From an uncultured Verrucomicrobiota bacterium (GTDB lineage Bacteria; Verrucomicrobiota; Kiritimatiellia; JAAZAB01), in NCBI GenBank assembly GCA_964630555.1, contig CAZVVD010000003.1, positions 1 to 61,457 on the forward strand: DNA of 61,457 nt. The letters are read 5' to 3'. Made by a program: the position numbers and the translations under genes. Position 1 is the stretch's first letter. The number at the start of each line of letters is the position of its first letter. The notes below the pieces were generated by a model that had not been told where the DNA came from, ran no database searches, and saw only the letters and a list, made by a program, of their open reading frames with translations. This document shows positions 28,916 to 46,393 of the stretch, piece by piece.

Positions 28916-31900
28916 ATGAACACACGTTTCAGGTTGCGTTGGCAACCCTGGATGGGCGTGCTAGGGCTGGCGATCGCCGCTATTTCAGGGCCAGTGGCCG
29001 GACAAACCCCGGCGGCGGACTACAGCAAGGGATTCGCCAGGTTTTACGCCCTGGGGCTGCCCGTCCTGACCACTAACGCCGCCTATGTCAAGCTGGAGGT
29101 CTGGATGGACTACATGCAATTCGGGCGTGACCTCTCCTTCTCCGATCTGAAGCAGGAGGGCAACGCCTGGATGCTGACGCAGGATCCGGCCGAAGGCAAA
29201 GCCTGGTTCGTCGCCGATTATTGCCGGAGGGTGGAAGTCTACGATCAAAAGACGCTCCTGGCAAAGCGCAACGCCAAAATGAAAGAAGAGCGCGCCAAAA
29301 CCAAAAACGCAAAAACACTGGCCGCCAAGATCAGCGCCTGGATGATGGACGATCAGGACAGAAAGCCGGCGGGACAGTGGAAACCGGCCGATCCGAAAAA
29401 AGACATCGCGCGCATCATTGAGTTTCTCAAGAAAAGATCCGCTACGGGCTCTGCGCGCTACGACCCCTTGAAAGCCTATTCCGGTTACGGCGCCCTGCTG
29501 CTTGCCGCCATTCATTTCCACCGGATGGGATACACCCATGAAGCCAATGAAATCGTCGGCCTGCTCTTCGAAGTGTCCCAGGATCAACGCCTGGTGCTCA
29601 CCCAGGGACTGGGCCGGCTTGCTGACGCCTGTTATTCGGACATCACGGATGCGTTCTTCGCGACCGGCGACTGGAATGCCTACGCCCAGGCCCTCCATTC
29701 CCTCCTGACCGAGTTTTCCACGTCCTGGGACAAGTCGCCCGCGGTCCAGCGCCTCGCAGAACGCGTGACCGCCCGCGCCGCCCAGAAACAGGCGCCCCCT
29801 ATTGCCGGCGAAGATCTCACCGACGAGGACCGTCAGCTCGCCAACGAACTGGCCGCCGCCACCAACCTGAACCGGTCCCTCATGGCCGGCATGCTCCGGG
29901 GCCAGAACTGGATTCTGCCCGACCCCTCGCTGGCGCAACACCTGCCGCCGGGATCGAGCAATGTTCTTTCGCGCATCCTGGACCGCGGCATCAAGTCCGT
30001 CCCCCTGCTGCTTGCCCTGGTCAAGGACGACCGCATGACCATGGTGAATATCCAAAGTTTGAATCGAACCAGCTTCACCTCCTTCTCGGACGACGAGGGC
30101 ATGACCGAGGAACGCATCCAGCAGACGTACGATTCCCTGCAGCGTCCGGCGTCACGCTCCGAAATCGCCGTGATGCTCCTTGCACCGCTCTTAAAGCAGG
30201 AAGACGATCTGCGCGGCAATCGTCCGAAGCCGACGCGCGACGAGATTCACGAGCAGGCCGCCGCCTTCTACGCAGCGCACAAGAACCAATCGCCCGCGGA
30301 ACTGGCGCACTATTTTCTCAAAGAAGGCGACGACAACCAGCGCAACATGGCGATCCATTTGCTGATCCAGTCCGGCGGCACCCAGGACGTGGCGGCCATC
30401 GAAGGCTTCCTGCTGAACCCGGACAACCTGATGCGCCGATTGCAGCTGGCCAGCATGTATGTGATGCAGCGCAAAGAAAAGGCGAAGGATTTTGTCGGGC
30501 ACTATGCAGACCTGCTCAACCAACAGATGACCAACACCAGCGATAACGAGATGTTCAAGCGGGACGATTTCAAGCAGGCGGTCGAGCGGAACCTGACCCA
30601 GATGCAACTCATGACCGCCGCGCCCAAACCCTTCGCGGAGATCCTGGACAAGATCACGGCGGGAACGAACGACTGGGATATATCCGCCACAGGTTTATAC
30701 CAGGCCATGCAGGGGAAAAAGCCGGACGAACTTTTGCCGCCGCTGCTCAGCGCCGCCGGAAAGGCAACCAACGCGGACTTGCGGATCAAATTGATCGGCA
30801 TGACCATGGCGGCGACCCACATGCAAAACGCCGAGGAGGAGGAGGAGGAGATTCCGCCGCCCCTCGATATCGCGAAAACGGCCGCCTTGTGGAAACCCCT
30901 GCTGGCCGACAACCGCGCCGCCGAAACCGAGACCCCCTTTTCCGACCGGCTCGGCACGGTCGGCGACACGGCCGCGCAAGCGATCGAAATGCTTTACAGC
31001 GATGAAGCGCAGATGGATCCCTACGCGCGCTACTGGAGCCAGGGCCCGAAGATAGCGCGGGTCATGAAAGCCCGGGCCGAGGCCCGGCTGGCTGGAAAAA
31101 AAGCCGGCGAACTGCCGCCCTTGCCGTCGGCCGACAAAGTGAGCAAGGCGGAGAGAAAGAAAATTGTTGATCAACTCCTGCGGACCAAGGCGGACGAACT
31201 GGCGGCGCAGATCAAAGCCCTGGGCCCGGATAGCCTGGCGGCCCTCGGCGAGGAAGCCGATGATAACACCGTCCTCAGCGCCAAGCTGGCGCCGTTGGCC
31301 AACACCATCACCGAGGTTGCCTTCAAGCCGCACAAGGGAGAAAAAGCCACGGAACTGGATGCGCTCAAAGGCAAACAGCTCGACAAAATACAGATTGAGC
31401 TGCTGCTGGGAGTTTGCCGCCGATTCACGGAGGAGGGCAAACCCTGTTATCTCGCCATTAAACGCCAGGCCGATTTGGACGGCACCACGGTCCGAATGCA
31501 GGTGTTGTCAGCCACAAACATGAGCGCCGACACACGTCAGTATTTCGGACACTTCAGTTTCGGTTCCAACAAGAAGGCCATGATCAACGCCCTCTTGCAT
31601 GGTCCGGAGCTGAATGCCGGGGCCATGTGGTTCGTCGAACAGAAGGCCTCGCCGGCGCCGGGCACGAACACCCCGGCAGCGCAGGCCCACGAGACCGACG
31701 AGTTGACCGAAAAGGACATGCTGGAAGAAGCCAGCGCTTCGATGAATGAACGCCTCGCCGAACAGCAACTGGAATTCTGGAAAACAGCGGAGGAATTATG
31801 CCAAGGCAGCGGCAACAGCTGCCAGGCGGCGGCAATCATGTTTTTCGGAGTTCCGGTGCTTCCCGAGGGCGCAAAGACCCAGGGGAATGTGCGGAACCGC

Positions 31901-31936: not shown

Positions 31937-32206
31937 CGTCCCGCCGTTCCAGCAACGCTGCCGGCGCGCTCACGATGCGGGCTGTGCCCGCAACCCAAGG
32001 TACCGCAGGGGTTTCCTTCAACGGCGGGCAAGGCCAGCTTTGGCTGGAGGCAGGCACGCGGCGCACCGCGCTCTACTCGTGTAAGCGCAAGCGCCGGAAG
32101 CCTGCAGACGGCTCAAGATCGCCGCCGCATTTTGCGAACCCAATTCGAAACACGCGCAGCATAAAACAGACGAGGAAGCAGTACTCATCATAGGAGGGAA
32201 ATCACG

Positions 32207-33186
<980 letters not shown>

Positions 33187-33190
<4 letters not shown>

Positions 33191-34062
33191 GCCATTCCCT
33201 GTTCAAGTATCTCAAGGCGGAAGATATCCGGAAACTGGCTAGCTTCGAGTTCGCGCCCCGCGCGCTCGTGGAAGGCTACCTGGCCGGCCGGCACAAGGCC
33301 TACACGCGCGGCTCGTCCATCGATTTCCGCGATTACCGCGAGTACGTGCCGGGCGACGACCTGGCCCTGGTGGACTGGCGGGTCTTTGCCCGCACCGACC
33401 GCCAATACCTGCGCACCTACGACCAGGAATCGCACCTGGAATGCCATGTCTTCCTGGACAGCAGCGCGTCCATGGGGTTCGGCCGCAGCCTGACCAAGCT
33501 GGAGTACGCGTCATTCTTCGCCGCCGCGCTCTGTTACCTCGTGATCAAAAACACCGACCGCGTTTCGCTCCAGATTTTCGACGATAAGATCAGGAAGTAT
33601 TATCCGCTGGGCAGCACCGGGCGCCACCTGCAAACCCTGATGCACGCCCTGGAGCACAACCGGCCCGGCAACAGGACCTCGGCGGCCGAGGCCCTGAAGC
33701 GTTCCTTTCCCCTGCTGAAGACCAAGGGAAGCCTGGTGGTCATTTCCGACTTCTTCGACGATCCCGCCGCCATTTTCAACGCCCTGAACCCCTACCTGCA
33801 CCGCGGCTTCCGCGTTCATTTCTTTCATATCCTGACGCCCGAGGAAATCGATCTTGAAGACCGCGGGTTGCTGACGTTCGCGGACATGGAAACCGGCCGG
33901 CGGGTCATCGCCCACAGCGCCAACCTGCGCGTCCCGTACCGCCAGGCCATCCAGCGCCACGTCGACAGCCTGCGCGAACTCGCCATGCGCCGGCAGGTCG
34001 ATTACATGCTCGCCCGGACCGACACCCATTATTTCAAACTCTTTGACAGGTTGACGCAATGA
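33187..34062 (+). CDS. DUF58-family protein (vWA-like partner of MoxR).
   Basis: 291 aa. GSSIDFRDYREYVPGDDLALVDWRVFARTDRQYLRTY ... VFLDSSASMGFG. ATGA overlap with moxR. Confidence 0.9.
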
Positions 34063-36089
34063 CGTTTGTCATCGGCAATAGCGCCCTGTGGCCGTTCCTG
34101 TTGCTGCTGGCCGTGCCCCTGGCGCTGCATTTGTTTGCGCGCAGCCGGCCGCCGGTCTATTTCTTCAGCTCCGTCGAGTTCATCCGGCGCATCGTCCGTT
34201 CCACCCTGCGCATCAAGCGTCCCAAGGACTGGCTGCTGCTGCTGCTGCGCACGCTGATATTTGCCGCCGTGATCCTGCTGTTCCTGCGCCCGGTGTATTT
34301 CGCGCAACGCAAGCTGGCCGGGCCGTTCCAGAAGAGACATGTCGCGATCGTCGTTGATGCCACGGCGTCCATGGCTTACCCGGACGGCGCGCAGACGCGC
34401 TTTGCCACGGCCTGCGCCGAAGCCGCCGCCATTCTCTCCGGGCTCTCCGCGCGCGATACCGCCAACCTCGTCTGGCTCAGCGCGAACCCCGAATCCGTTT
34501 TTCCGGAAATGGGCGTCAACTTCGGTTTTTTGCAGGAGGTCCTGCGCCAGCGGACGGTGACGGTCGAGGCCGGCGCCATCGACAAGACTCTGAGCCTGGC
34601 CGTCAACCTGCTGGAAGGACAGGAAGGACGCCGCGAAATCTGCGTCATTTCCGATTTTCAGAAATCGGCCTGGGAATCGGTGCAAATCACCCTGCCGCCC
34701 GCCATCGATTTGATCAAGATCAAAATCGGCGCCGTTGACGGCGCCAATGCTGCCCTGATGGACATCCGCCTGGATCCTTGCCGTCCGCTGGTTGGCGAGG
34801 ATACCGCGATTTCTTGCGAGGTCTGCAATTATTCGCCCCAACCCGTGCGCAAAACCGTATTCCTCAGCGTTGGCGAGCGCCGCCTTTCCCATGATTTGAT
34901 GGTTCCGGCCTGGAACAAAGCCACGGCCGTTTTCAAGCACCGTTTCACCGCGGCCGGGGTTGTGCCGCTAACCGCCCGCCTGTCCGAAGACCTATTCCCA
35001 GCCGACGACCGCATGGCATCGGTCGCAGAAGTCAGCGAGTTCGTGCGCGTCGGCATGTTGCCCGCGGAGCCGCTTACCGCGGCAGCCTGGCAGCGCGCCC
35101 TGCGGGCCCTCGGCTGGGTCAAGCTGGATGTCTTGGCGTCCGCCGGCCAGGCTGGGAGTCCCTCGCGGGACGCCCTTTTTCTATCCGGCTGGGATGGCGG
35201 CGACAGCGCGCCATTGCGCCAGGCCCTCCTGGCCGGCCGCGCGATCGTCTGTACCCCGGCCCGCGACCTGCCGCTCAGCCGCATCGCGGCCCTGGTGGAC
35301 GGCGCGCAGCGGCCGGACGGCGACCTTTTCCGCTGGGAGCAGGACAAGGCCGGGCATACGCTCTCCATCAGGCGGGAGCAGGATCCAGTCTTCCGCATTT
35401 TCAGCAACGGCGAATTCGGCGATTTGTCGCGGGCTTCCTTCGGCGGGCGTTTCATGTTTCCGGCGGCGGCCCTGCCAGCGGGCGACCTGCTCCTGGCCTA
35501 TGACGACGGGCAGCCGGCGCTCATTCGGTACCCGGCCGGCCTGGGCCTCCTCTACCTGTGGAACATGCCGCTCGACCCCGAATTCAGCAACTGGCCGAAA
35601 CGCTCCGACTTTCTCCCCTTCCTCGCCGAGTTGCTGCTCGCCAGCCGAAGCGGGTCGGGTGGGGAATACGAGGTGTCCCGGCTGACCACCGGTGAACAAG
35701 CGGGACTGCGGCTGGACCGCGACCTGCCGTCTTCGGAACTGGCCCTGCGCGACGAGGACGGGCAGGCGATCCCCTTGCGCGAGACGCGCGGATCGGGCCA
35801 CGCGATGTGGCTGGCCGGGCAATCCCTTAACCCGGGACTCTACACCTGGCAGCACCTGGACAAACCGCTGGCCTGGACCGTGGTGGAATTTCCGTCCGTC
35901 GAATCCGACTTGCGCGTCATTCCGCCGGAAGAATTGCAGCAACGGAACCTGGGCGCCGCCATCGTCGCGCGCGGCTTGAGCCTGCGCGACATGCACGAAG
36001 GCATAGCGCTTTGGCCCTACCTGCTGGCGCTTGCCCTGGCGGCTCTGCTGGCGGAGGGCCTGGCGGCCTGGTGGGCGGAACGATCATGA
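34059..36089 (+). CDS. BatA-type protein: aerotolerance-regulator N-terminal double-TM domain plus vWA domain plus C-terminal TM.
   Basis: 676 aa. FLLLLAVPLALHLFARSRPPVYFFSSVEFI (BatA_N pattern). HVAIVVDATASMAY (MIDAS). ATGA overlaps at both ends. Confidence 0.85.
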   Translation: MTFVIGNSALWPFLLLLAVPLALHLFARSRPPVYFFSSVEFIRRIVRSTLRIKRPKDWLLLLLRTLIFAAVILLFLRPVYFAQRKLAGPFQKRHVAIVVDATASMAYPDGAQTRFATACAEAAAILSGLSARDTANLVWLSANPESVFPEMGVNFGFLQEVLRQRTVTVEAGAIDKTLSLAVNLLEGQEGRREICVISDFQKSAWESVQITLPPAIDLIKIKIGAVDGANAALMDIRLDPCRPLVGEDTAISCEVCNYSPQPVRKTVFLSVGERRLSHDLMVPAWNKATAVFKHRFTAAGVVPLTARLSEDLFPADDRMASVAEVSEFVRVGMLPAEPLTAAAWQRALRALGWVKLDVLASAGQAGSPSRDALFLSGWDGGDSAPLRQALLAGRAIVCTPARDLPLSRIAALVDGAQRPDGDLFRWEQDKAGHTLSIRREQDPVFRIFSNGEFGDLSRASFGGRFMFPAAALPAGDLLLAYDDGQPALIRYPAGLGLLYLWNMPLDPEFSNWPKRSDFLPFLAELLLASRSGSGGEYEVSRLTTGEQAGLRLDRDLPSSELALRDEDGQAIPLRETRGSGHAMWLAGQSLNPGLYTWQHLDKPLAWTVVEFPSVESDLRVIPPEELQQRNLGAAIVARGLSLRDMHEGIALWPYLLALALAALLAEGLAAWWAERS

Positions 36090-38302: not shown

Positions 38303-38320
38303 CGGCATTGTTTCCATATC

Positions 38321-41110
38321 ATGAACACGACGGATCACACCGCGGGCTGCGATCTCAATGCCGCGCTGACGCGAATGAAGCACAGCTGGCAATCTGGCTT
38401 GCTGCTGTGCGCCGCCGTGCGCCTGGCCGGCGAAGCGCTGGTGGCCCTCTCCGTCTACGGTGTGGCCGACGCCTTCCTCGCCCTGGCGGACGGCGTCCGC
38501 ATCGTCCTGGGAATCCTGCTGGCCGCCGCGCTGGCCGCGCTCGCCGTGGCGCGGGTGATCCGCATGTTACGGATCACGAACGAACAGATGGCCCGGCGGG
38601 GCGACTCCCTTCTGCGGAGTTCCCGACGCGCCGTGCTCAGCGCCTGGGAACTGGACCGTTGGATTTCCGCCGGCGGAGCCGGCGGAGTCAGCGCCGGGCT
38701 CACGCGCTTCCTGGTCGAACGCAGCATCGGGCTGGCGACCGCCAGCCTGCGCGGCCTGCAATGGAAGGAGTATTTCCCTTTCGCCGAAGTCCGGCGCGAA
38801 TTGAAAGCGGCGGGCTTGAAACTGCTGATCCCCGTTTTCCTGCTGATCCTCAATCCAAACGCCGCCAGGACGGTTTTGGGACGCATGCTCCTGCCAGGGC
38901 GCGACATTCCCCCCTATAGCCGCTACACCCTCACGGTTTCCCCAGCCCAACCTTCCGTGTTTTATGGCGGCACGGTCGAATTGGCCGTGGACATCGTCGG
39001 CGGCCCGGTCAACTCGCCGGTCGCCTTCGTCACCCGTTACCAGGGCCGGCGCCAATCGGTGGCCTGTTTCCAGGAAAGCCCCCAACGGTTCGCCCAGCGC
39101 CTGGAGCGGGTCGTCAGCCCGGTCGAGGTGTGTTTCAGCATGGGCAAAGCCCGCAGCCGCTGGCATCCGGTGCAGGTCATTTACCAGCCGATCATCACCC
39201 TGGCCGAGGTGGCCATCAGCCCGCCGGCGTATACCCTCCTTCCCCAGCGCCGATTCTTCGCCGGAACCGAAAGCCTGGCGGGCATCCGGGGCTCGCGGGC
39301 CTCCTTGACCCTCACCAGCAACCGCCCCCTCCTGGACGGCGTCATGACCCTTACTTACCGCAGCGGCACGGGACGCGACGAAGCCATGCGCGGCCTGAAA
39401 ACCGGCGCGCACACCGTCACGTTCGACTGGACCCTCAAGGAGCCGGCCCAGCTGGAGCTGTCCGTGCGCGACATGCGCGGCGCAAAAAACAAGGAGCCCT
39501 ACAAGCTGGATCAAAAGGTCCTACCGGATAATCCTCCGGAAGCGGCCATCACCGAGCCGGTCGGCTTTGCCCTGGCCACGCCCAAAATTACGCTGGCACT
39601 GCAGGGGTATGCCGCCGACGATTACGGGCTGCGCCGGGTGGAATTGGTCCAGACGGTGGCCGGCTACCGCGACCGGGCCAAATTCATTGGTCCGGCAAGC
39701 CCGGAGCGCCGCTTCGATTTCGACGCGCCGGCCGATCTGCAGGCGATCGGCGTCGAGGCGGGGCAGCTCCTGGAATTCTACCTCGAAGCCTCGGACCAGA
39801 ACCCGCTCATGACCGGGGCCACGGCCTCCGATATCGTTCGCGTTCGCATCATATCCGAGGACGACTACGCGGCCATCCTACGGGAGCGCACGACCCTGGA
39901 CGCCTTCCTAAACCGCTACCGCCGGCTGACGGAAAGCCTGGCCGAGGTAAAAACCGCCTTGCGCGAATTCAAGGCGGCAGCCGAGTCGGGCCGCGCCCCG
40001 GCGTCCGAACTGGAACGCCTTCGGGAGCGGGCGGCGCGGGTTCATGAGACGGCGGCGGACCTGTTCTACAAGACCTCGACGGATTTCCCGATTTTCGATT
40101 GCGAAGCGACCCTGGCGGACGCGCTGGCGGCCCTGATCAATCCCCTGCGGAAGAACGAACAAATGCTGGCGCTGGTCATGACCTCGGACCCGCGTCTGCC
40201 ACAAATCATCGACCTCATGCTGGCGCGGCTGGGGGAGCAGGAAGCAAGCCTGGGCGCCGAAACCCAACGCGCCGAAGATATCGCCCGCGTGGCGCGCGTG
40301 ATGGAAGCAGCCGCCGTCTTCAATGCCATCGTGCTCCGGCAGACTGCCCTGGTCAGGCGGCTGGCCCGCTTCGAGCCGCCGGCCTCCGAAAAAAGCAATG
40401 CGCTCCTGGCCGCCCTCGGCCGGAACCAGGCCGAAATCCGGGAGGCCCTGGCCGCCCTGTGCGACCGCATCGAGGAGGCGGCGGGCCGCCTGCCGGAAGA
40501 CTATGCCGAGCTTGGGGACAGCGCCCGGGAATTTGTCGACGCCCTCGCCGAAAGTGGCATCGCGGAACTGATGCAGGCGGCGGTCACGGCGGCGGGAAAC
40601 CAAGCCGGCCCGCAAACGGCCCGCCATGCCCGCCATGCCCTGGAGAAACTGCTCGAACTGGCCAAGTCCCAGGGCAACTCGCCCTTCGGGGGCTTAACCG
40701 GCAAGCGCATGAATTTCGGCGTCGGCCCGGGCTTGAAAGACACCCTGGAACAGATGCTGGCGGCGATGAACCCGGGACAGGGCAACGGCGCCAAACCGGG
40801 CTTCTTCGGCGTCGGCTGGGGCGGCGGCAATACCGACGACGGCTTCGCGATGGCGCAAACGTCGCTGCTCGACATCCCGGTCTTCGGTCCGGCGCGTGAC
40901 ATGCCGCCCGCTCCCGGCGGCGGCAGCGGGACGGGCCAGTCGAATGCCACCTGCCAAGCCGGCGCGCCGGTCACCGCCACGGCCGCCGACACGCTGACGG
41001 TGCCGGCAAAAGGGCCGCCGCCGGGCGAAAGCCTGCCGGCGGAAAACATTCCCGAGAAATACCGCGAAGCGCTCAAGCGTTACTTCAACCAGGAGGGCAA
41101 CCCTTCATGA
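38321..41110 (+). CDS. DUF4175-like membrane-anchored coiled-coil protein (929 aa). Short paralogue of 3299..9355.
   Basis: N-terminal TM pair. DDYGLRRVELV motif. Roughly 280-aa helical region. C-terminal PEKYREALKRYFNQ. 18-nt gap upstream and ATGA overlap downstream. Confidence 0.8.
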   Translation: MNTTDHTAGCDLNAALTRMKHSWQSGLLLCAAVRLAGEALVALSVYGVADAFLALADGVRIVLGILLAAALAALAVARVIRMLRITNEQMARRGDSLLRSSRRAVLSAWELDRWISAGGAGGVSAGLTRFLVERSIGLATASLRGLQWKEYFPFAEVRRELKAAGLKLLIPVFLLILNPNAARTVLGRMLLPGRDIPPYSRYTLTVSPAQPSVFYGGTVELAVDIVGGPVNSPVAFVTRYQGRRQSVACFQESPQRFAQRLERVVSPVEVCFSMGKARSRWHPVQVIYQPIITLAEVAISPPAYTLLPQRRFFAGTESLAGIRGSRASLTLTSNRPLLDGVMTLTYRSGTGRDEAMRGLKTGAHTVTFDWTLKEPAQLELSVRDMRGAKNKEPYKLDQKVLPDNPPEAAITEPVGFALATPKITLALQGYAADDYGLRRVELVQTVAGYRDRAKFIGPASPERRFDFDAPADLQAIGVEAGQLLEFYLEASDQNPLMTGATASDIVRVRIISEDDYAAILRERTTLDAFLNRYRRLTESLAEVKTALREFKAAAESGRAPASELERLRERAARVHETAADLFYKTSTDFPIFDCEATLADALAALINPLRKNEQMLALVMTSDPRLPQIIDLMLARLGEQEASLGAETQRAEDIARVARVMEAAAVFNAIVLRQTALVRRLARFEPPASEKSNALLAALGRNQAEIREALAALCDRIEEAAGRLPEDYAELGDSAREFVDALAESGIAELMQAAVTAAGNQAGPQTARHARHALEKLLELAKSQGNSPFGGLTGKRMNFGVGPGLKDTLEQMLAAMNPGQGNGAKPGFFGVGWGGGNTDDGFAMAQTSLLDIPVFGPARDMPPAPGGGSGTGQSNATCQAGAPVTATAADTLTVPAKGPPPGESLPAENIPEKYREALKRYFNQEGNPS

Positions 41111-41874
41111 TCGCGGCCTCCAAGCAAACGGGTCCATCGCAAGCGGTGAAACAGGCAAGCTGCGCCGGCCGCAGCCTGCCCGCAAGGCTTTGCCCGCCGA
41201 TGCCGGCGGGTCAAACGCGTCCCTCCAAAAGCGCCCTGGCGGGAGTGATCCTGGCCGCCGGCCTGCTGGCGGGGCCGGTTGCGGCCAAGGAAGGCACCAT
41301 CCAGTGCGCCAATTTGATTTACGGCGGAACGCATACCTCGCGTTGTTTCAGCGACGAATTCCTCAGCGCGGTCCAGAAACAGACCACGATTCCCACCGAG
41401 CGCCGCTTCAAGAGCGTTAAGCTCGGTTCCGATGAGTTATTCCAATACCCGTTCGTGGTGATGACTGGCGAGTCGAATTTTCATTTCACCGGGCCGGAAC
41501 GCGAGAACCTGAAAAAGTATTTGACCCGCGGCGGTTTCCTGCTGGCTTCCGCCGGATGTTCCAACAAGGACTGGGACCGCGCCTTCCGGCGAGAAATGCG
41601 CGTGATGTTCGGCGATCACAGCCTGAAGAATATCGAGATGACCCATCCCCTCTTCCACACCGTGCACGAGATCAAGGAGTTAAAGCTGCAACACGCCGGC
41701 GACAACGCGCAGCTGCAGGGCATCGAATCGAACGGCAAGCTGGCGGTCGTCTATTCACCCCACGGCTTGAACGACACCTCCCACACCGTGGGTTGCTGCT
41801 GTTGCGGCGGCAACGAGATCGTCAATTCGCTAGAAATGAACGTGAATATCGTCGTCTACGCCTTGTTGTATTAA
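41107..41874 (+). CDS. DUF4159-like exported protein with a C-terminal GCCCCGG motif.
   Basis: 255 aa. Signal/TM ALAGVILAAGLLAGPVAA. CANLIYGGTHTSRCF. GGFLLASAGCSNKDWDRAFRREM. CCCC is encoded at 41794-41805. Confidence 0.8.
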   Translation: MIAASKQTGPSQAVKQASCAGRSLPARLCPPMPAGQTRPSKSALAGVILAAGLLAGPVAAKEGTIQCANLIYGGTHTSRCFSDEFLSAVQKQTTIPTERRFKSVKLGSDELFQYPFVVMTGESNFHFTGPERENLKKYLTRGGFLLASAGCSNKDWDRAFRREMRVMFGDHSLKNIEMTHPLFHTVHEIKELKLQHAGDNAQLQGIESNGKLAVVYSPHGLNDTSHTVGCCCCGGNEIVNSLEMNVNIVVYALLY

Positions 41875-41878
41875 ACCC

Positions 41879-44800
41879 ATGAACCAGCTCCGGCCATGCC
41901 TGCTCATTGTTAGCGCCCTCCTGGCGGCAAGCCTTCCGGCGCCGGCCATCCCGACCGCGCCCAGGATCGAACCGACCCCGGCCGTCATCTCGAACGCCCC
42001 GCCCCCCCTGGTATGGCACACCAGCCTGAAGCCGGCACTGCTCAAGGCCGCCGCCGAATACCAGCCGGCGCTCGTGCTTTTCAGCACGCCCGCCTGCCCG
42101 TGGTGCCTGCGCCTGAAAGCAGAAATGATGGATGACCCCGACACCCACGCCCTGCTTCAACATTTTGCGCTGGTTGAAATCGACGCCGGCGACGATCCCG
42201 AAATGGCCGCCGCCTACCAGATCGCCGGTGTGCCGACCCTGGTTGTTCTTTCGGCCGGCGGCGACGTTCAGCAATATGCCTCGGGCTATCGAACACCGCA
42301 AGAGGTGCGCGAGGTCTTGAAGGCCGCCTTGAATCCGGAATTCCTGCGCCGCCAGGACCCCGCCTATTCCGCCCTGATGAAAATGCTGGCCGACCAGAAA
42401 GTGCCCGCCGATCAATGGCCGGATATCCTGACCGCCCTGGGTTCTCCCGTAAAGCGCAAGACGCTGCATGACGCCATCCTAGGCCTGGCGCCGTTTCCCA
42501 AACAAGACCTGGCCGGCATGCTGCGCCATCCCCGCCTGGCCGTGCGCCTGGGCGCGCTGGAAATATTGGAGGAAATGACCGGGGACGCCTTCGGGTTCGA
42601 CCCCTGGCTCGCCCCGGGCGCGACCGAAAACCAGGCTGCCGCGGATCAATGGTCGGCCTGGGTCTCGTCCACCAACAGACAGGCCACCCTATATGCCACC
42701 TTGACCCAGGACCAGATCAACGCCTATATCCGCGACTTGATTTCCGATCATCCCGATCGCGCGCGGCGCGCCCGGCAGATGCTTCATAACGGCGGCCCGT
42801 CAGTGGCCGGCGCCCTGGCCGGGTTCCTGGAGGAAAATCCGGGATTACCCCCGGCCGCCGCCATGACCGTCAAGGAGGTGCAATATGCCAATCTGCTGGC
42901 GGGGATCGACGGCAGCGACCCCCATTCCCTGGCGCACCATCTGGTCTTCGGTTCGCTGGATGTCCGCCAGAGCAGTATTCCCAAATTGATGACGGCCGGA
43001 GCCGGCGCGCTGGTGATCCTGCAGGATTTCCTGAACGATCCCGACCCCATGCTGCGCGAGGCCGCGATCGACACCTTGATCGCCGCCAACAGCATGAGCG
43101 CGCCCGCCTTGCTGGAAAAACGGCTCAAGGTGGAAAACGATCCGGAAGTGGTCTGCGCGATGCTGCGCGGTCTGGGCCGCGTCAAGAGCAAGCGGGGGCT
43201 GGCCGTGCTGATCTCGTACCTGGACCATGCCAACGAGGACCTGGCCGTCACCGCCCTGAACAGCGTCACCCGTTTGAAGGCCAAAGCAGCCGTGGCCCCC
43301 GTGGAAGCATGCCTGAAAGACCCGCGTTGGCGCGTCCGGGTCGCGGCCCTGGAGGCGATCGGCGCCTTGAAAACAAGCACTCTGACCGATAAGGTCGTCG
43401 CGCTATTGAACGATCCCGACGAATTCGCGCGTTATACCGCGGTTAAGACGCTGTCCTTGATTGCCGATAAAAAAGCGGCGCCCAAGCTCGAAAAGGTTTT
43501 CCTCAAGGAGGACGGGCTGAAGGGCGCTGTGGTCGCGGCCTTTGTCAGTATGGAACTGCCCCTGCCGGCAAGTTTCAAGCCGGCTTTGGCCGGCAAAAAC
43601 CCGGAGGTGCTGCTCTCCGTCATCGAGGCCATCGACTCGGACCAGAAGCCCTGCATCGACCTGGCCTCCGATTTCATTAATCACGAAAACCCCGATGTCG
43701 CCTGCGCCGCTATTCGCATTGCGGCCGCGCACGGCATGAAGATCCCCGCCATCCGCGCCCGAATCGTCGAGACGCTCATATCCGGCTCTCGGGAAAGAAA
43801 ATTGGCAGCGCTGGAGGCCATCCCCCCGCCCGAGGCCAAGGATCGGCTGCCTTCTTTTGGGGCTCCCGCACCGCCGCCGGCGCTTGCGGCGCCGGGAACA
43901 AACCCTCCGGCCCCCATCGATTCCCTCTTCGACGATTTCCTTGGCGCCGGCGGGGCCAGCCCGACTCCTGCAGCCCAGCCCGCTCCTGCAACCCCCGCCC
44001 CGGCAGCCCCGCAAGGGGTTGCGCTGGACGATATCCTGACCGCATTTTCTCAGGCCGACGCCGGCCGGACGACAGGCGGCGTGTCCGCCGCCGCGTCCCC
44101 GGAAAGCGCACACCCCGGAGAGCGGTCCCCTGCGCGCTACACCACGGAACGGTTATTGCAGGAAGTCGACACACTGCGGGCCGGGTCCGACCCCGAAATC
44201 TCTTTCCGGGCCGCCCTGTTGCTTACCCGCTACGGCAGTCCGGCGGGCCTGGCCTATCTCCAGAACGGGCTGGCGGAGCGGTCCGTCGCGGAACGGCTGG
44301 CGGTCGCCGACAGTCTCGACGGCGTGGCCGGCAGGGCGCCGAGCCATTGCCTGCGTTTGCTGCTGAACGATCCCGCCGACACGGTCCGCCAAACGGTCAT
44401 CGCGTCTGCCCTGGAAAGTCTCGATACCCCTGCGATCCTGGATTTCTTGTTCGAAGAGCTTTTGCGCCGCGGCACACGCCTCAAGCCCTACGAATTATAC
44501 ACCTACGAATTATCGAACGCGGACCGCAACCCGGCGGCCAGGCAGAACCTGCTCAAGTGGGCCCGGCGCCTGATCGCGGAAAGCACGGACCCGGAGACCC
44601 AGGATCTGGGAATATTCCTGCTGGAAGGATATGGAACCAAGCAGGATGCCCAACGCATCCGTCCTTTCCTGCAAGCCGAGAACCCCTTCCTGCGCCGCGC
44701 GGCCTATCATGCGCTCGGCAAACTGGATACCCCGGCATTTACCAACCTGGCCGGCGCCGCCGCGTCCGATTCGTCCGAATATGTCCGCACCGTCGTGCCC

Positions 44801-46393
44801 GACATTTACAACCGCGGAAGATCGCAATGGATTAATTATTTCGACCTGGAGCATTTCTCGTACAATTATTCTTCTTTCTCCTCGTATGACCGGCAAAGCC
44901 GCCCCTTGCCGCCGGATATCGAAGCGCTCTTGTTCAGGCTGACCCGCGACGCATCGCCCAAGGTGCGGATCGAGGCGTTTTTCAGTCTGCTCGAAAACCG
45001 CAAAGCACTGAACCTGGCCGAATTTGCCGCGACCATTGACAGTTTTCCCGACCGCATGGAAATCCGTTCGCGCGTTACGGATTATCTCAGCTCCAACTTC
45101 GAGAATCTCGGTAAGGGGTTCGGCATCCTGTTGCGCTACCTTGATGACAACCGCGGGGACAGCGAGCGCTTCCAAAAGATACGCAAGCATTTCGACATGG
45201 GGGACGAGGAAGAGGCGGATGCCGCGGCCCTGTCGGCCCGGTTGGCCAAACCGTCCGCTCGCATGGCGGTTTACCTGAGCACAAACGACAACCGGCAAGC
45301 CGCCAACGCGCAACGGATCAAGATGGTGTTTTTCACCAGCGCGGGCTGCGCCGACTGCGCCCGCGTGAAGAGATTCCTGCCGGAGCTGCGCGAATTGTTC
45401 CCGTGGCTGGATGCTCGGACCCACGACTTACGCACGATCAGGGCCATGAAGCTGAACGAGGCCTTGTGCGAAAGATTCGGCGTGCCCGACAACCTGCGCC
45501 TGGTCTCCCCCGCCGTCTTCGCCAACGGCGGCTTTCTCATCAAGAAGGACATCACCTTCGAACGGCTGGCTGATCTCCTCGCGCGTTCGGCGACCATGTC
45601 CGCAGAGGACTGGCTGGCCGCGCCGGAAGTGGACTTGGCGGCGGCCGGACATGCCATCGCCCGGCGCTACGCGGCACTTTCGCCGCTGCTTGTGGCCGGC
45701 AGTGGATTTCTGGACGGCATCAACCCCTGCGCTTTCGCGACCCTGATCTTCCTCGTTTCGTACCTGCAGATCGCGCGCCACAAACCGCGCGAAACCGTCC
45801 AGGTTGCCGCCGCCTTCATCAGCGGCGTGTTCCTGGCCTATCTCGGGCTGGGCCTCGGGTTGGCACAGATCATCTCCCGGATGATGGTGCTCAACAAAGC
45901 AAGCCTGGTGCTCAACTGGGGATTGGCTGCCTTGGTCCTGGTATTGATGGTGTTGAACATACGGGATGGCATTTTATGCCTGCAGGGGCGCTTGGCGGAA
46001 ACGGCGCTTCAGCTTCCCGCATTTTTAAAGAAGGCCACTCACATCGTCATTCGCCGCGGCGCCCGTCACGCCCGTTTTGTAGTCGCCGCGTTTATCGTCG
46101 GCTTGGTCATCTCCCTGTTGGAATTGGCCTGCACGGGCCAGGTCTATGCCCCGACGATCGGATTTATCGTCCAGACCCAGGGACTTTCGGCTCGCGCTGT
46201 CGGCCTGCTCATCCTGTATAATGCTGCGTTTATTCTGCCGCTGATCGCCGTGTTCACGCTGGTTCTTTTCGGTCTGACCGCAGGGCGAATGACGCTCTGG
46301 CTCCAGCGGCACGCCGCGGCCGTCAAGTTCGGCACGGCCGGCCTCTTCCTGGCTCTCTTTATCCTTTTCTTTATCTGGGCCGGGCCGCGCTGA
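41879..46393 (+). CDS. 1,504-aa fusion: signal peptide, thioredoxin-like domain (CPWC), HEAT array, P/A linker, HEAT array, second thioredoxin/glutaredoxin-like domain (CADC), and a 6-TM DsbD/CcdA-like thiol-disulfide transporter domain.
   Basis: CPWC at 42095-42106 in the context ALVLFSTPACPWCLRLK. HEAT-like units: PRLAVRLGALEILEE, DPMLREAAIDTLI, DPRWRVRVAALEAIGAL, DEFARYTAVKTLSLI, NPFLRRAAYHALGKL, SPKVRIEAFFSLL. P/A-rich linker at about 43800-44080. CADC at 45347-45358 in MVFFTSAGCADCARVK. TM Cys in GINPCAF (45728-45730) and LELACTGQ (46130-46132). Starts 4 nt after the DUF4159-like gene. Confidence 0.85.
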   Translation: MNQLRPCLLIVSALLAASLPAPAIPTAPRIEPTPAVISNAPPPLVWHTSLKPALLKAAAEYQPALVLFSTPACPWCLRLKAEMMDDPDTHALLQHFALVEIDAGDDPEMAAAYQIAGVPTLVVLSAGGDVQQYASGYRTPQEVREVLKAALNPEFLRRQDPAYSALMKMLADQKVPADQWPDILTALGSPVKRKTLHDAILGLAPFPKQDLAGMLRHPRLAVRLGALEILEEMTGDAFGFDPWLAPGATENQAAADQWSAWVSSTNRQATLYATLTQDQINAYIRDLISDHPDRARRARQMLHNGGPSVAGALAGFLEENPGLPPAAAMTVKEVQYANLLAGIDGSDPHSLAHHLVFGSLDVRQSSIPKLMTAGAGALVILQDFLNDPDPMLREAAIDTLIAANSMSAPALLEKRLKVENDPEVVCAMLRGLGRVKSKRGLAVLISYLDHANEDLAVTALNSVTRLKAKAAVAPVEACLKDPRWRVRVAALEAIGALKTSTLTDKVVALLNDPDEFARYTAVKTLSLIADKKAAPKLEKVFLKEDGLKGAVVAAFVSMELPLPASFKPALAGKNPEVLLSVIEAIDSDQKPCIDLASDFINHENPDVACAAIRIAAAHGMKIPAIRARIVETLISGSRERKLAALEAIPPPEAKDRLPSFGAPAPPPALAAPGTNPPAPIDSLFDDFLGAGGASPTPAAQPAPATPAPAAPQGVALDDILTAFSQADAGRTTGGVSAAASPESAHPGERSPARYTTERLLQEVDTLRAGSDPEISFRAALLLTRYGSPAGLAYLQNGLAERSVAERLAVADSLDGVAGRAPSHCLRLLLNDPADTVRQTVIASALESLDTPAILDFLFEELLRRGTRLKPYELYTYELSNADRNPAARQNLLKWARRLIAESTDPETQDLGIFLLEGYGTKQDAQRIRPFLQAENPFLRRAAYHALGKLDTPAFTNLAGAAASDSSEYVRTVVPDIYNRGRSQWINYFDLEHFSYNYSSFSSYDRQSRPLPPDIEALLFRLTRDASPKVRIEAFFSLLENRKALNLAEFAATIDSFPDRMEIRSRVTDYLSSNFENLGKGFGILLRYLDDNRGDSERFQKIRKHFDMGDEEEADAAALSARLAKPSARMAVYLSTNDNRQAANAQRIKMVFFTSAGCADCARVKRFLPELRELFPWLDARTHDLRTIRAMKLNEALCERFGVPDNLRLVSPAVFANGGFLIKKDITFERLADLLARSATMSAEDWLAAPEVDLAAAGHAIARRYAALSPLLVAGSGFLDGINPCAFATLIFLVSYLQIARHKPRETVQVAAAFISGVFLAYLGLGLGLAQIISRMMVLNKASLVLNWGLAALVLVLMVLNIRDGILCLQGRLAETALQLPAFLKKATHIVIRRGARHARFVVAAFIVGLVISLLELACTGQVYAPTIGFIVQTQGLSARAVGLLILYNAAFILPLIAVFTLVLFGLTAGRMTLWLQRHAAAVKFGTAGLFLALFILFFIWAGPR

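What the first reader, a model, noticed from the sequence alone, without database searches (positions are those of the whole stretch)
28916..46393. Eight-gene, ~17.5-kb expanded MoxR-vWA (Bat-like) envelope cluster bracketed by an orphan secreted protein and a thiol-redox giant
Seen: the seven ORFs from 32207 to 46393 are packed with four ATGA stop/start overlaps (33187, 34059, 36086, 41107) and gaps of only 18 and 4 nt, so they form one translationally coupled unit. A 1,006-aa secreted protein with no recognisable family lies 270 nt upstream on the same strand. Established: MoxR AAA+ ATPase, DUF58 and BatA-type double-TM vWA proteins form the widespread Bacteroides-aerotolerance-type operon, whose biochemical function is still unresolved. 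Inference: here that core is extended by a vWA/amidotransferase-like membrane protein, a DUF4175-like coiled-coil protein, a DUF4159-like exported protein with a CCCC motif, and a thioredoxin-HEAT-thioredoxin-DsbD fusion. Together these would give the machine an explicit trans-membrane reductant supply. I do not know of this complete architecture having been described as a system.
Basis: partly seen in the sequence, partly recalled or inferred. Interest (0 to 1): 0.72.

Follow-up and report, generated by a model that had tools for sequence, protein, structure and literature searches.

The report
Conserved MoxR-vWA envelope cluster with reductase
The eight genes are a real cluster kept in the same order across the phylum Verrucomicrobiota (Lentisphaeria and Kiritimatiellia included), and it joins a poorly understood MoxR/vWA "Bat-type" envelope machine to its own DsbD-like channel for sending reducing power into the periplasm, which makes the old idea that such machines work by periplasmic thiol chemistry testable.

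Summary
Eight same-strand ORFs lie at the stated coordinates, with four ATGA overlaps, gaps of 18 and 4 nt, and a 270-nt gap after the first gene.

**Domain calls**
- Strong: MoxR AAA_3, DUF58, BatA_N+vWA, DUF4159, Trx+HEAT.
- Weak but supported: g5 is a full-length paralog of g4. g6 is DUF4175-like. The g8 C-terminus aligns to E. coli DsbD with both catalytic cysteines matched.

- I took the 80 best genome loci encoding g5, all Verrucomicrobiota in the broad sense.
- Of 59 loci with enough downstream flank, 57 carry g6, 57 carry g7 and 56 carry g8.
- Of 60 loci with enough upstream flank, 57 carry g2-g4 and 55 carry g1.
- Gene order and strand are kept, so the test was passed.

**New points**
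- The exported DUF4159 protein carries seven near-invariant cysteines, including the CCCC. The solved DUF4159 structure (4i66) lacks most of them; a plasmid homolog lacks all seven.
- In g8, the Trx2 CxxC is invariant and the two membrane cysteines are 95% conserved. The N-terminal Trx1 is lost or degenerate in some clades.
- The "orphan" g1 belongs to an unnamed family of about 680 clusters.

**Best reading** (architecture shown, function inferred): an ATP-driven trans-envelope vWA scaffold whose cysteine-rich subunit is kept reduced by a dedicated electron conduit. This is a new variant of a known kind. I found no description of it in the literature I searched.

The parts
28916..31936 (+). 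g1: secreted ~1000-aa protein of an unnamed family, predicted to be mostly alpha-helical (solenoid-like)
   Evidence: The N-terminus looks like a signal peptide. None of 25 orthologs has a Pfam or PDB hit. The AF2 model has pLDDT 68.7 and is mostly helices; Foldseek returns only weak alpha-solenoid hits with E>0.07. A profile search finds 678 cluster representatives, 451 of them at E<=1e-30. A g1 homolog sits directly upstream of MoxR in 55 of 60 loci.
31937..32206 (+). 270-nt g1-g2 spacer; AGGAGG-type ribosome-binding site just before the MoxR start
   Evidence: The sequence is shown. No promoter- or terminator-like site above chance was found. In relatives this gap has a median of 24 nt, and 81% are 50 nt or less.
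32207..33190 (+). g2: MoxR-type AAA+ ATPase (cytoplasmic motor)
   Evidence: AAA_3 8e-62 and AAA_lid_2 2e-15. Walker A (GVPGLAKT, aa 51-58) and Walker B (ADE, aa 116-118) are at least 90% conserved in 62 orthologs.
33187..34062 (+). g3: DUF58 protein, a cytoplasmic vWA-like partner of MoxR
   Evidence: DUF58 5e-41 and VWA_2 3e-9. No TM segment was predicted. The DxSxS motif (D91/S93/S95) and a later SDF motif are conserved. Its vWA region is related to those of g4 and g5 (hhalign 95% and 85%).
34059..36089 (+). g4: BatA-type membrane protein: two N-terminal TM helices around a basic loop, then vWA(MIDAS), a long extension and a C-terminal TM helix
   Evidence: BatA 6e-11, VWA_2 5e-9 and TIGR02226 1.6e-10. 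TM-like segments lie at about 9-27, 58-76 and 655-673. The MIDAS-type D100-x-T-x-S and SDFQ motifs are conserved. The experimentally mapped homolog BB0173 has the same layout, with its vWA domain in the periplasm (PMC5700661).
36086..38302 (+). g5: paralog of g4: 2 TM, vWA(MIDAS), Ig/CARDB-like domain, GATase1-like region without a conserved Cys, C-terminal TM with an RRR tail
   Evidence: hhalign g4 vs g5 gives 99.5% over about 600 columns. D79/S81/S83 and D171 are invariant. The profile hits vWA structure 5a8j at 9e-7 and Ig-like domains over aa 222-305. Distant homologs carry PF07090 GATase1_like. No cysteine is conserved.
38321..41110 (+). g6: DUF4175-like membrane protein: N-terminal TM helices, beta-rich domain, ~250-aa helical/coiled-coil region, Gly-rich tract, conserved C-terminal VPEKYRxAVKRYF motif
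   Evidence: TM-like segments lie at 27-77 and 161-186. Three of 24 orthologs hit PF13779 DUF4175, best 8e-7, and 2 hit Big_7. Aa 520-770 match helical-bundle and coiled-coil structures.
41107..41874 (+). g7: exported DUF4159 protein (class-I glutamine-amidotransferase-like fold family) with seven conserved cysteines. CCCC is at aa 230-233 (nt 41794-41805). Alternative start at 41200.
   Evidence: DUF4159 5e-31. It matches PDB 4i66 at 8.6e-11. C67, C80, C151 and C231-233 are 98-100% conserved and C230 89%, in 65 orthologs. 4i66 lacks C151 and keeps only one Cys across the CCCC motif (its alignment does not cover C67/C80); a plasmid DUF4159 lacks all seven.
41879..46393 (+). g8: 1504-aa fusion of signal peptide, Trx1, long HEAT solenoid, Trx2 and a DsbD-like 6-TM domain
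   Evidence: Pfam hits are, and the translation. About 85 full-length orthologs are found in Lentisphaerae, Verrucomicrobia and Kiritimatiellia, several named CcdA/HEAT/thioredoxin-related by JGI. g8 is adjacent to g7 in 56 of 59 loci.
42014..42319 (+). g8 Trx1 domain (aa 46-147), CPWC at aa 73-76
   Evidence: Thioredoxin_2 8e-13. The CxxC is intact in 31 of 57 orthologs. In the others it is degenerate (CxxS, SxxC or none) or the domain is deleted.
42476..45268 (+). g8 HEAT-repeat region (about aa 200-1130), predicted periplasmic scaffold
   Evidence: HEAT_2 6e-39 with 6 stretches in the first half and 1.4e-16 with 4 stretches in the second half. Repeat motifs are conserved in 40 orthologs.
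45311..45628 (+). g8 Trx2 domain (about aa 1145-1250), CADC at aa 1157-1160
   Evidence: Both cysteines are 100% conserved. Eight of 10 orthologs hit Glrx-like. The AF2 model has pLDDT above 90 here, and Foldseek gives thioredoxin-fold hits at probability 1.0.
45686..46390 (+). g8 DsbD/CcdA-like domain of six TM helices, with Cys1284 (GINPC, TM1) and Cys1418 (ELACTG, TM4)
   Evidence: Both cysteines are 95% conserved. hhalign to E. coli DsbD gives 87%, E 3.8e-6, 170 columns, and matches NPC to TPC and ACTG to SPCT. One of 10 orthologs hits DsbD_TM/DsbD_2 at 2.4e-5. The AF2 model shows six long helices. Foldseek found no PDB match for the TM part.

Best explanation
**What it is.** The eight genes encode one conserved, vertically inherited envelope module of Verrucomicrobiota in the broad sense. 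It is an enlarged MoxR-DUF58-BatA ("Bat-type") system with a private thiol-reducing arm.

**Proposed working model.** Steps are marked as shown or inferred.
1. In the cytoplasm, the MoxR hexamer (g2) and the DUF58 vWA protein (g3) form the usual AAA+/vWA motor pair. Shown: intact Walker and MIDAS motifs. Inferred: that they interact.
2. Two paralogous BatA-type proteins (g4, g5) and the DUF4175-like protein (g6) sit in the inner membrane. They expose only short basic loops and tails to the cytoplasm. Their large vWA(MIDAS), Ig-like, GATase1-like and coiled-coil parts face the periplasm. The topology is inferred from hydrophobicity and charge, and from the experimentally mapped homolog BB0173. 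The motor is inferred to act on the cytoplasmic loops and so remodel or assemble the periplasmic complex.
3. The exported DUF4159 protein (g7) carries a subfamily-specific set of seven cysteines. One lies at a position that resembles the nucleophile elbow of its fold (judged from the motif, not from a structural comparison). The others include a CCCC run.
4. g8 is anchored by a DsbD-like six-helix domain. Electrons from cytoplasmic thioredoxin are inferred to pass through Cys1284/Cys1418 to the adjacent Trx2 CxxC. Where Trx1 is present, they pass on to it at the far end of a roughly 1000-residue HEAT solenoid that serves as a scaffold.
5. The most likely client is the g7 cysteine cluster, kept reduced or cyclically re-reduced for catalysis or metal binding. 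Trx1 may additionally act on a cysteine pair in g6.
6. The secreted alpha-helical g1 is a further periplasmic subunit or substrate.

**Physiological role (inferred).** Maintenance or assembly of the cell envelope under oxidising conditions.
For: **Linkage.**
- The cluster keeps the same order and strand across Lentisphaeria, Kiritimatiellia, Verrucomicrobiae, Opitutae and Chthoniobacter.
- g6, g7 and g8 follow g5 in 57, 57 and 56 of 59 loci. g2-g4 precede it in 57 of 60 loci, and g1 in 55 of 60.
- Median gaps range from -4 to 32 nt.
- Flanking genes differ between loci, so the conserved unit is g1 to g8.
- When the cluster is split (L009, L011), g5-g8 stay together.

**Redox relay.**
- The Trx2 CxxC is 100% conserved and the two TM cysteines 95%.
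- The TM cysteines align to the two DsbD TM cysteines in TM1 and TM4.
- Trx2 has a thioredoxin fold in a confident model.

**Client candidate.**
- Six of the seven g7 cysteines are 98-100% conserved and the seventh (C230) 89%.
- Most are missing from DUF4159 proteins outside this cluster type: 4i66 (aligned region only) and all seven in a Corynebacterium plasmid protein.
- They are retained in a distant cluster variant (L085) that also has a Trx-HEAT protein next to DUF4159.

**Topology.** BB0173 (BatA_N, vWA, C-terminal TM) is an inner-membrane protein with a periplasmic vWA domain (PMC5700661).

**Link to older work.**
- The B. fragilis bat mutant was partly rescued by reducing agents. Bat proteins were proposed to reduce periplasmic proteins or export reducing power (as quoted in PMC3557215).
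- The Rhizobium MRP-type MoxR RL3499 is needed for membrane integrity and cell morphology (PMC3893208).

**Trx1 and g6.** The g6 Cys249/Cys271 pair is present in 28-29 of 31 orthologs with an intact Trx1 CxxC. Where Trx1 is lost or degenerate, C249 is present in 8 and C271 in 2 of 26.
Against: - Nothing here is experimental. Every functional step rests on linkage and conserved motifs.
- The DsbD assignment is weak. The window's own sequence has no Pfam hit, only 1 of 10 orthologs hits, and Foldseek found no TM match.
- The distant variant L085 has Trx-HEAT but no fused DsbD-like domain, so the conduit is not obligatory in cis.
- Trx1 is dispensable in many lineages.
- The g6-Trx1 association is confounded by phylogeny, reflects few independent events, and has exceptions in both directions.
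- A few genomes have the cluster split or incomplete (L041, L080, L009, L011).
- Leptospira bat deletion mutants showed no redox or morphology phenotype (PMC3557215).
- The seven cysteines could equally be structural disulfides made by the ordinary oxidative pathway.
Confidence: 0.5

Rival explanations
1. There are two independent systems that happen to be neighbours. One is a Bat-type MoxR-vWA envelope complex (g1-g7). The other is a general-purpose periplasmic reductase (g8) that serves cytochrome c maturation, disulfide isomerisation or oxidative-damage repair for the whole periplasm, as DsbD, CcdA or ScsB do.
For: - DsbD-family proteins normally serve several clients (established knowledge).
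- The Trx-HEAT protein of the distant variant L085 lacks the conduit.
- Trx1 is lost in many lineages without loss of the cluster.
- No direct interaction data exist.
Against: - g8 follows g7 in 56 of 59 loci across several classes, with short or overlapping junctions, while outer flanks vary.
- g5-g8 stay together when g1-g4 are elsewhere.
- The cysteine-rich form of DUF4159 was seen only next to Trx-HEAT genes.
- A 1000-residue HEAT scaffold is not a feature of housekeeping DsbD or CcdA (E. coli DsbD is 565 aa).
Confidence: 0.17
2. The cluster is a metal-centre assembly machine. As in NorQ/NorD, CoxD/E/F or the Mg and Co chelatases, the MoxR-vWA pair inserts a metal or metal-sulfur cofactor. 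The g7 polycysteine site is the metal-binding centre or carrier, and g8 only keeps the ligating thiols reduced.
For: - Characterised MoxR/vWA pairs act in metal insertion or cofactor maturation (PMC9976466 and PMC13036017 abstracts; PMC3893208).
- Three vWA domains have intact MIDAS motifs.
- Seven conserved cysteines, including a CCCC run, sit in an exported protein.
Against: - No recognised metalloenzyme target, metal transporter or metallochaperone gene lies in or next to the cluster.
- The motor is cytoplasmic and the cysteine protein is periplasmic.
- Four consecutive cysteines are geometrically poor as ligands for a single cluster (inference).
Confidence: 0.18
3. The cluster is a MoxR-vWA conflict or defence system, like the MoxR-vWA-beta-propeller ternary systems, or else a mobile adhesion island.
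For: - g2 gives a secondary hit to the bpMoxR model (1.4e-9, 37.8 bits).
- vWA domains are common in adhesins and in conflict systems (PMC7159879 abstract).
Against: - PADLOC returns nothing except generic HEAT-repeat matches.
- There is no beta-propeller, effector or mobility gene.
- The cluster is collinear across a whole phylum, the opposite of the patchy distribution of defence islands. Copy number per genome was not examined.
- GC content is like that of the surroundings.
Confidence: 0.03

Closest known systems
Bacteroides aerotolerance (Bat) operon and its spirochaete homologs (MoxR, DUF58, BatA, BatB, BatC, BatD, BatE)
   Same: Both have a MoxR AAA+ ATPase, a DUF58 protein and BatA-type proteins (double-TM N-terminus, vWA with MIDAS, C-terminal TM) in one operon-like cluster. 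The vWA domain of a BatA-type protein is periplasmic (PMC5700661). A link to periplasmic reducing power was proposed long ago (PMC3557215).
   Different: No TPR (BatC), BatD or SH3/TPR (BatE) proteins were detected here. The BatA-type proteins here are about 700 aa with Ig-like and GATase1-like extensions. The cluster adds a DUF4175-like protein, a cysteine-rich DUF4159 protein, a Trx-HEAT-Trx-DsbD-like giant and a 1000-aa secreted helical protein.
Alphaproteobacterial RL3499-RL3502 operon of Rhizobium leguminosarum (MRP-type MoxR)
   Same: Both contain an MRP-type MoxR, and the Rhizobium one has a cell-envelope and morphology phenotype (PMC3893208). From my own recollection, not checked here, that operon also encodes DUF58, a BatA_N membrane protein with a DUF4159 region, and a DUF4175 protein. 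If so, it has the same domain set as g2-g7 in fewer genes.
   Different: As far as I recall it has no thioredoxin, HEAT or DsbD component and no g1 homolog. Whether its DUF4159 region has the cysteine set is unknown. The primary paper was not available.
DsbD / CcdA / ScsB family of thiol:disulfide electron transporters
   Same: Both have two essential cysteines in TM1 and TM4 of a pseudo-symmetric helical domain, and these align between g8 and E. coli DsbD. Both have a thioredoxin-fold domain with CxxC fused next to the membrane domain. The passenger domains are periplasmic.
   Different: The Trx-like domain precedes the membrane domain instead of following it. The N-terminal Ig-like DsbD-alpha domain is replaced by a thioredoxin plus about 1000 residues of HEAT repeats. 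Sequence similarity is so low that Pfam DsbD models miss the window protein. The gene is embedded in a MoxR-vWA cluster.
DUF4159 (PF13709; crystal structure 4i66, Hoch_4089 of Haliangium ochraceum)
   Same: g7 matches the Pfam model at 108 bits (cut-off 25.9) and matches 4i66 at 8.6e-11 over aa 88-253.
   Different: The g7 subfamily has seven conserved cysteines (C67, C80, C151, C230-233). 4i66 lacks C151 and keeps only one Cys across the CCCC motif, while the plasmid DUF4159 protein lacks all seven.

Membership tests
MoxR AAA+ ATPase with vWA partner | AAA_3-type AAA+ domain with Walker A/B motifs and an AAA lid | tested here: met
   AAA_3 8e-62 and AAA_lid_2 1.7e-15. Walker A GVPGLAKT and Walker B ADE are conserved in 62 orthologs.
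MoxR AAA+ ATPase with vWA partner | Adjacent gene encoding a vWA/DUF58 protein with a MIDAS motif | tested here: met
   g3 hits DUF58 at 5e-41 and overlaps g2 by 4 nt. DxSxS is conserved.
Bat (Bacteroides aerotolerance) operon | BatA/BatB-type protein: BatA_N double-TM domain plus a vWA domain | tested here: met
   g4 hits BatA at 5.7e-11, TIGR02226 at 1.6e-10 and VWA_2 at 4.7e-9. g5 is its paralog.
Bat (Bacteroides aerotolerance) operon | TPR protein (BatC), BatD and SH3/TPR protein (BatE) in the same operon | tested here: not met
   None of the eight products hits a TPR, BatD or SH3 family in Pfam at E<=0.01. The operon composition is taken from PMC5700661.
Alphaproteobacterial RL3499-RL3502-type operon | MoxR + DUF58 + BatA_N/DUF4159 membrane protein + DUF4175 protein | tested here: inconclusive
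   MoxR, DUF58, BatA_N and DUF4159 are all present here but on separate proteins. DUF4175 is hit by only 3 of 24 g6 orthologs and not by the window protein. The composition of the Rhizobium operon is from memory, and the paper was not available.
DsbD/CcdA/ScsB electron transporters | Two conserved cysteines in TM1 and TM4 of the membrane domain | tested here: met
   C1284 and C1418 are 95% conserved. They align to the TM1 (TPC) and TM4 (SPCT) cysteines of E. coli DsbD (hhalign 87%, E 3.8e-6).
DsbD/CcdA/ScsB electron transporters | Significant match to the family profile (Pfam DsbD_TM or DsbD_2) or to a solved member by fold | tested here: inconclusive
   The window protein has no hit even at E<=10. 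One of 10 orthologs hits at 2.4e-5. Foldseek of the model returned only thioredoxin-fold hits. JGI names several orthologs CcdA.
DsbD/CcdA/ScsB electron transporters | Fused or partner periplasmic thioredoxin-fold domain with CxxC | tested here: met
   The Trx2 CADC is 100% conserved. It has a thioredoxin fold in a model with pLDDT above 90.
DsbD/CcdA/ScsB electron transporters | Electron transfer from cytoplasmic thioredoxin to periplasmic clients | not testable with these tools
   This needs biochemistry or genetics.
DUF4159 (PF13709) | Match to the Pfam model above the gathering threshold | tested here: met
   108.2 bits against a cut-off of 25.9. PDB 4i66 matches at 8.6e-11.
DUF4175 (PF13779) | Match to the Pfam model | tested here: inconclusive
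   The window's g6 has no hit. Three of 24 orthologs hit, best 8.2e-7.
MoxR-vWA-beta-propeller ternary conflict systems | Beta-propeller component and effector domains next to MoxR and vWA | tested here: not met
   There are no propeller or effector families in the eight products. PADLOC has no hits apart from generic HEAT matches. Only a secondary bpMoxR hit was found, at 1.4e-9.

The most novel reading that the evidence does not exclude
The cluster is a single ATP- and thiol-powered trans-envelope machine, and the polycysteine site of the DUF4159 subunit is its catalytic or metal centre. The DsbD-like/Trx/HEAT giant is its dedicated electron wire. If so, this cluster shows that MoxR-DUF58-BatA (Bat-type) systems in general are periplasmic redox machines, which would give the first molecular handle on a function left unresolved since 1999.
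Probability: 0.3. Interest if true: 0.8.

Novelty: new variant of a known kind. Interest (0 to 1): 0.62.

Why it matters
MoxR-DUF58-BatA clusters are very widespread, yet what they do biochemically is still unresolved. Phenotypes range from aerotolerance to envelope integrity to none at all.

In this cluster the same core is linked, across a whole phylum, to two things:
- a transmembrane thiol-electron conduit with thioredoxin domains;
- an exported subunit with a lineage-specific set of seven cysteines.

That turns a vague idea, "Bat proteins export reducing power", into concrete experiments with named residues and partners. The experiments can be done in organisms that include cultured Verrucomicrobiota: Verrucomicrobium, Persicirhabdus and Luteolibacter appear among the loci.

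The work also defines three sizeable protein families with no usable annotation. These are g1 (about 680 clusters at 50% identity), the g5 type (relatives in at least 490 species-representative genomes) and the roughly 1500-aa Trx-HEAT-Trx-DsbD-like fusion.

Tried and rejected
1. I recalled that Kamneva et al. 2012 had described this cluster as a PVC-specific module. Reading the paper shows their module is DUF1501/PSCyt/PSD1, which is unrelated.
2. I suspected that the Akkermansia mucin utilisation loci included a MoxR/Bat cluster. The papers I could read describe MUL1 as Sus-like and MUL2 as a pilus locus, and do not mention MoxR. Searches for Akkermansia with MoxR or with vWA found nothing relevant.
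3. Foldseek of the g8 C-terminal model was meant to confirm a CcdA/DsbD fold. Only the thioredoxin domain matched, and the membrane part found nothing. I used profile alignment to E. coli DsbD instead.
4. The AF2 model of g1 built from 6 sequences has only medium confidence (pLDDT 68.7). Foldseek gave nothing significant.
5. A tblastn of g7 against plasmids was meant to find alphaproteobacterial clusters. It found only one isolated Corynebacterium DUF4159 gene, which was still useful as a cysteine-less comparison.
6. hhalign between g5 and g7 (GATase1-like versus DUF4159), g1 and g8, and g6 and the others found nothing at 50% probability or above.
7. The first genome scan with a 16-sequence g5 alignment failed because no stretch was conserved enough. 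I repeated it with 12 sequences.
8. Literature searches for DUF4159, DUF4175, DUF1355 and TIGR02226 found no functional study of this cluster.
9. The defence-system reading was rejected.
10. The promoter and terminator scan was uninformative.

Full report
**1. The observation**

The window has about 65% G+C. Eight + strand ORFs occupy 28916-46393, each with one terminal stop. Four junctions are ATGA overlaps (33187, 34059, 36086, 41107). The g5-g6 and g7-g8 junctions are gaps of 18 and 4 nt, and g1 ends 270 nt before g2.

There is one qualification. The g7 start at 41107 gives 255 aa, while orthologs have a median of 217 aa. An ATG at 41200 lies immediately before the signal-peptide-like segment and is an alternative start.

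Consensus promoter and terminator scans show no excess over shuffled sequence anywhere in the cluster, including the 270-nt gap.

**2. What the eight products are**

Clear Pfam assignments:
- g2: MoxR AAA_3 (8e-62) plus lid.
- g3: DUF58 (5e-41).
- g4: BatA_N (6e-11; TIGR02226 1.6e-10) plus VWA_2.
- g7: DUF4159 (5e-31).
- g8: thioredoxin (8e-13) plus many HEAT repeats (6e-39).

*g5.* It has only a sub-threshold vWA hit, but three results place it:
- It is a paralog of g4 over about 600 columns (hhalign 99.5%).
- It has an invariant DxSxS MIDAS motif.
- Its profile matches a vWA structure (5a8j, 9e-7) followed by Ig/CARDB-like domains. Distant relatives carry PF07090 GATase1_like.

*g6.* The window copy has no Pfam hit. 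Three of 24 orthologs hit DUF4175 (8e-7). The protein has N-terminal TM helices, a beta-rich part, about 250 residues of helical bundle or coiled coil, a Gly-rich tract and a conserved C-terminal motif.

*g8.* Its C-terminal 370 residues contain a second thioredoxin-like domain (CADC at 1157-1160) and six hydrophobic helices.
- Pfam DsbD models miss the window protein and hit only one of ten orthologs (2.4e-5).
- JGI names several orthologs CcdA/HEAT/thioredoxin-related.
- A profile of this region aligns to E. coli DsbD at 87% probability (E 3.8e-6, 170 columns). GINPC aligns to the DsbD TM1 cysteine (TPC) and ELACTG to the TM4 cysteine (SPCT).
- An AlphaFold model built from 40 orthologs is confident (pLDDT 85.5). 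It shows a thioredoxin fold plus six long helices. Foldseek confirms only the thioredoxin part.

*g1.* It has a signal peptide and no Pfam, NCBIfam or PDB relative in any of 25 orthologs. A medium-confidence model (pLDDT 68.7) is mostly helical, and its only weak fold neighbours are alpha-solenoids. It is not an orphan: a profile search of 1.84 billion representatives finds 678 relatives (451 at E<=1e-30), nearly all about 1000 aa long.

**3. Is the extended cluster a unit?

Orthologs of g8 occur in Lentisphaerae, Verrucomicrobia and Kiritimatiellia. Three of their contigs were inspected directly:
- Two show upstream-large-ORF, MoxR, DUF58, BatA, ~735 aa, ~920 aa, DUF4159 and giant, all in the same order.
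- The third keeps only the g5-g8 equivalents together.

A scan of one genome per GTDB species with a g5 alignment found relatives at 490 places. The best 80 loci were fetched with 10-kb flanks, and the eight window proteins were then mapped onto them by tblastn.

| Loci considered | Gene(s) | Loci carrying them |
|---|---|---|
| 59 with at least 8.4 kb downstream of g5 | g6 | 57 |
| | g7 | 57 |
| | g8 | 56 |
| 60 with at least 7.3 kb upstream of g5 | g2-g4 | 57 |
| | g1 (tblastn) | 52 |
| | g1 (adding a profile search of the ORF upstream of MoxR) | 55 |

- Order and strand are always the same. All eight genes are collinear in 41 of 50 fully covered loci by tblastn alone.
- Median intergenic distances range from -4 to 32 nt. 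The g1-g2 gap has a median of 24 nt, so the 270-nt gap in this window is unusual.
- Genes outside g1 and g8 differ between loci. In this window they are an RND efflux operon upstream and an MGDG-synthase-like glycosyltransferase downstream.
- Exceptions are few. L009 and L011 have g5-g8 only, L041 has g1-g5 only, L080 has g5 alone, and three loci have insertions.

The flanking giant and the "orphan" therefore belong to the conserved unit.

**4. Conserved chemistry**

Motor and vWA motifs:
- MoxR keeps Walker A and B.
- DUF58, g4 and g5 keep MIDAS motifs.

Cysteine conservation across syntenic orthologs is the most informative result:
- In g8, the Trx2 CxxC is invariant and the two membrane cysteines are 95% conserved.
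- The N-terminal Trx1 CxxC is intact in only 31 of 57 orthologs. Elsewhere it is CxxS, SxxC or absent, or the domain is deleted, mainly in Verrucomicrobiales-type lineages.
- g7 has seven cysteines: C67, C80, C151, C231-233 (98-100% conserved) and C230 (89%). They lie in the motifs QCaNLIY..TSrC, LLASAGCS and GCCCCGGNEI.
- The solved DUF4159 structure 4i66 has no Cys at the C151 position and only one across the CCCC motif (its alignment starts at aa 88, past C67/C80); a Corynebacterium plasmid DUF4159 protein lacks all seven.
- A distant cluster variant (L085: MoxR, DUF58, BatA, g5-like, g6-like, DUF4159, then a 1110-aa Trx-HEAT protein without the DsbD-like part) keeps all seven.

So, in this small sample, the cysteine set goes with the Trx-HEAT neighbour and not with DUF4159 as such.

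One lead needs caution. A g6 cysteine pair (C249/C271) is present in 28-29 of 31 orthologs with an intact Trx1 CxxC. Where Trx1 is lost or degenerate, C271 remains in 2 of 26. The pattern involves few independent events and has exceptions in both directions.

**5. Topology (inference)**

- g4 and g5 have two N-terminal hydrophobic helices around a strongly basic loop, and a C-terminal helix followed by basic residues. This puts the roughly 600-residue middle part in the periplasm.
- That matches the experimentally determined topology of the BatA-type protein BB0173 (PMC5700661).
- g6 has a basic segment of about 80 residues between its second and third hydrophobic helices. This segment is probably cytoplasmic, and the rest is outside.
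- g1 and g7 have signal peptides.
- g8 has a signal peptide and ends in the six-helix domain. Trx1, the HEAT solenoid and Trx2 would therefore all be periplasmic, consistent with the periplasmic N-terminus of the DsbD membrane domain (established knowledge).
- Only MoxR and DUF58 are fully cytoplasmic.

**6. Mechanism**

My preferred reading is one trans-envelope machine.
- The MoxR-DUF58 pair acts from the cytoplasm on the short loops of g4, g5 and g6. This assembles or remodels a periplasmic vWA/GATase1-like/coiled-coil scaffold.
- The DsbD-like domain of g8 passes electrons to Trx2 and, where present, along the HEAT scaffold to Trx1.
- The relay keeps the cysteine cluster of g7 reduced, either for catalysis or for metal binding. 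It may also service a disulfide in g6.

The conserved linkage, the motifs and the alignment to the DsbD cysteines are shown. The interactions, the direction of electron flow and the client are inferred.

The reading fits older observations. The B. fragilis bat mutant was partly rescued by reductants, and Bat proteins were proposed to export reducing power (as quoted in PMC3557215). A Rhizobium MRP-type MoxR is needed for envelope integrity (PMC3893208). Against it, Leptospira bat mutants had no phenotype, the conduit is not fused in the L085 variant, and there is no experiment.

Rivals:
- g8 is a general periplasmic reductase that merely sits next door.
- The cluster is a metal-insertion machine, with g7 as the metal site.
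- The cluster is a conflict or adhesion island. PADLOC found nothing apart from generic HEAT matches, and phylum-wide collinearity argues strongly against this one.

**7. Comparison with what is known, and novelty**

- The core (MoxR, DUF58, BatA-type vWA) is the known Bat/MRP type. The Bat-specific TPR, BatD and SH3 proteins are absent.
- The g4-g7 domain set resembles what I recall of the alphaproteobacterial RL3499-RL3502 operon. I could not verify that operon's composition.
- g8 works like a DsbD/ScsB-type transporter, but it is very divergent, is permuted, and carries a HEAT solenoid.
- Full-text searches for the relevant domain names and organisms found no description of this eight-gene architecture. 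Two recollections of mine proved wrong when checked: the Kamneva 2012 PVC module and the Akkermansia MUL loci.

I classify the finding as a new variant of a known kind. It is a phylum-wide, redox-equipped expansion of the MoxR-BatA system, and it includes three sizeable unnamed protein families.

**8. Verdict**

The functional coupling is plausible but untested. Interest is 0.62.

Noticed in passing
window 3269-9355 (+), with 123-3302 (+) upstream: Two very large ORFs (2028 aa and 1059 aa) have no Pfam match. The longer one contains a long Ala/Gln/Glu-rich, coiled-coil-like low-complexity stretch, which produces an extreme AT skew (0.66 at 6001-8000).
   Followed up: partly
window 21841-28212 (- strand): An RND efflux operon (outer-membrane factor, AcrB-type pump, HlyD/CusB-type adaptor) is transcribed divergently from g1. 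It is not conserved next to the cluster in relatives.
   Followed up: partly
window 46688-47902 (+): An MGDG-synthase-like / GT28 glycosyltransferase lies 294 nt downstream of g8. It is not part of the conserved unit in the other loci inspected.
   Followed up: partly
L085:470-16685 (metagenome contig ERZ19978631): A distant variant of the cluster has a 1110-aa Trx-HEAT protein that lacks the Trx2/DsbD-like module. It is followed by two exported proteins of 529 and 573 aa with no known family. Its DUF4159 keeps all seven cysteines. The taxon is unknown.
   Followed up: partly
g8 aa 66-82 across loci L014, L019, L039, L051, L057, L066: In several lineages the Trx1 domain is kept but its CxxC has decayed: CxxS in Victivallales loci, SxxC or no cysteine in some Verrucomicrobia. 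This suggests either a shift to monothiol chemistry or loss of function.
   Followed up: partly
L009/L001 and L011 (Lentisphaerae GWF2_49_21, Victivallis sp.): Here g5-g8 stand without g1-g4. Kinase genes and small unknown genes lie upstream instead. I did not determine whether MoxR, DUF58, g4 and g1 sit elsewhere in those genomes.
   Followed up: no
protein P0263 (2834 aa): A protein nearly three times the usual length matches the g1 profile in eight stretches. It may be a tandem or fused g1-like protein.
   Followed up: no
L086:7842-8459 (Corynebacterium crudilactis plasmid pCRULAC1): A stand-alone, cysteine-free DUF4159 gene sits among IS26 copies and aminoglycoside and sulfonamide resistance genes. 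This is an odd context for this family.
   Followed up: no
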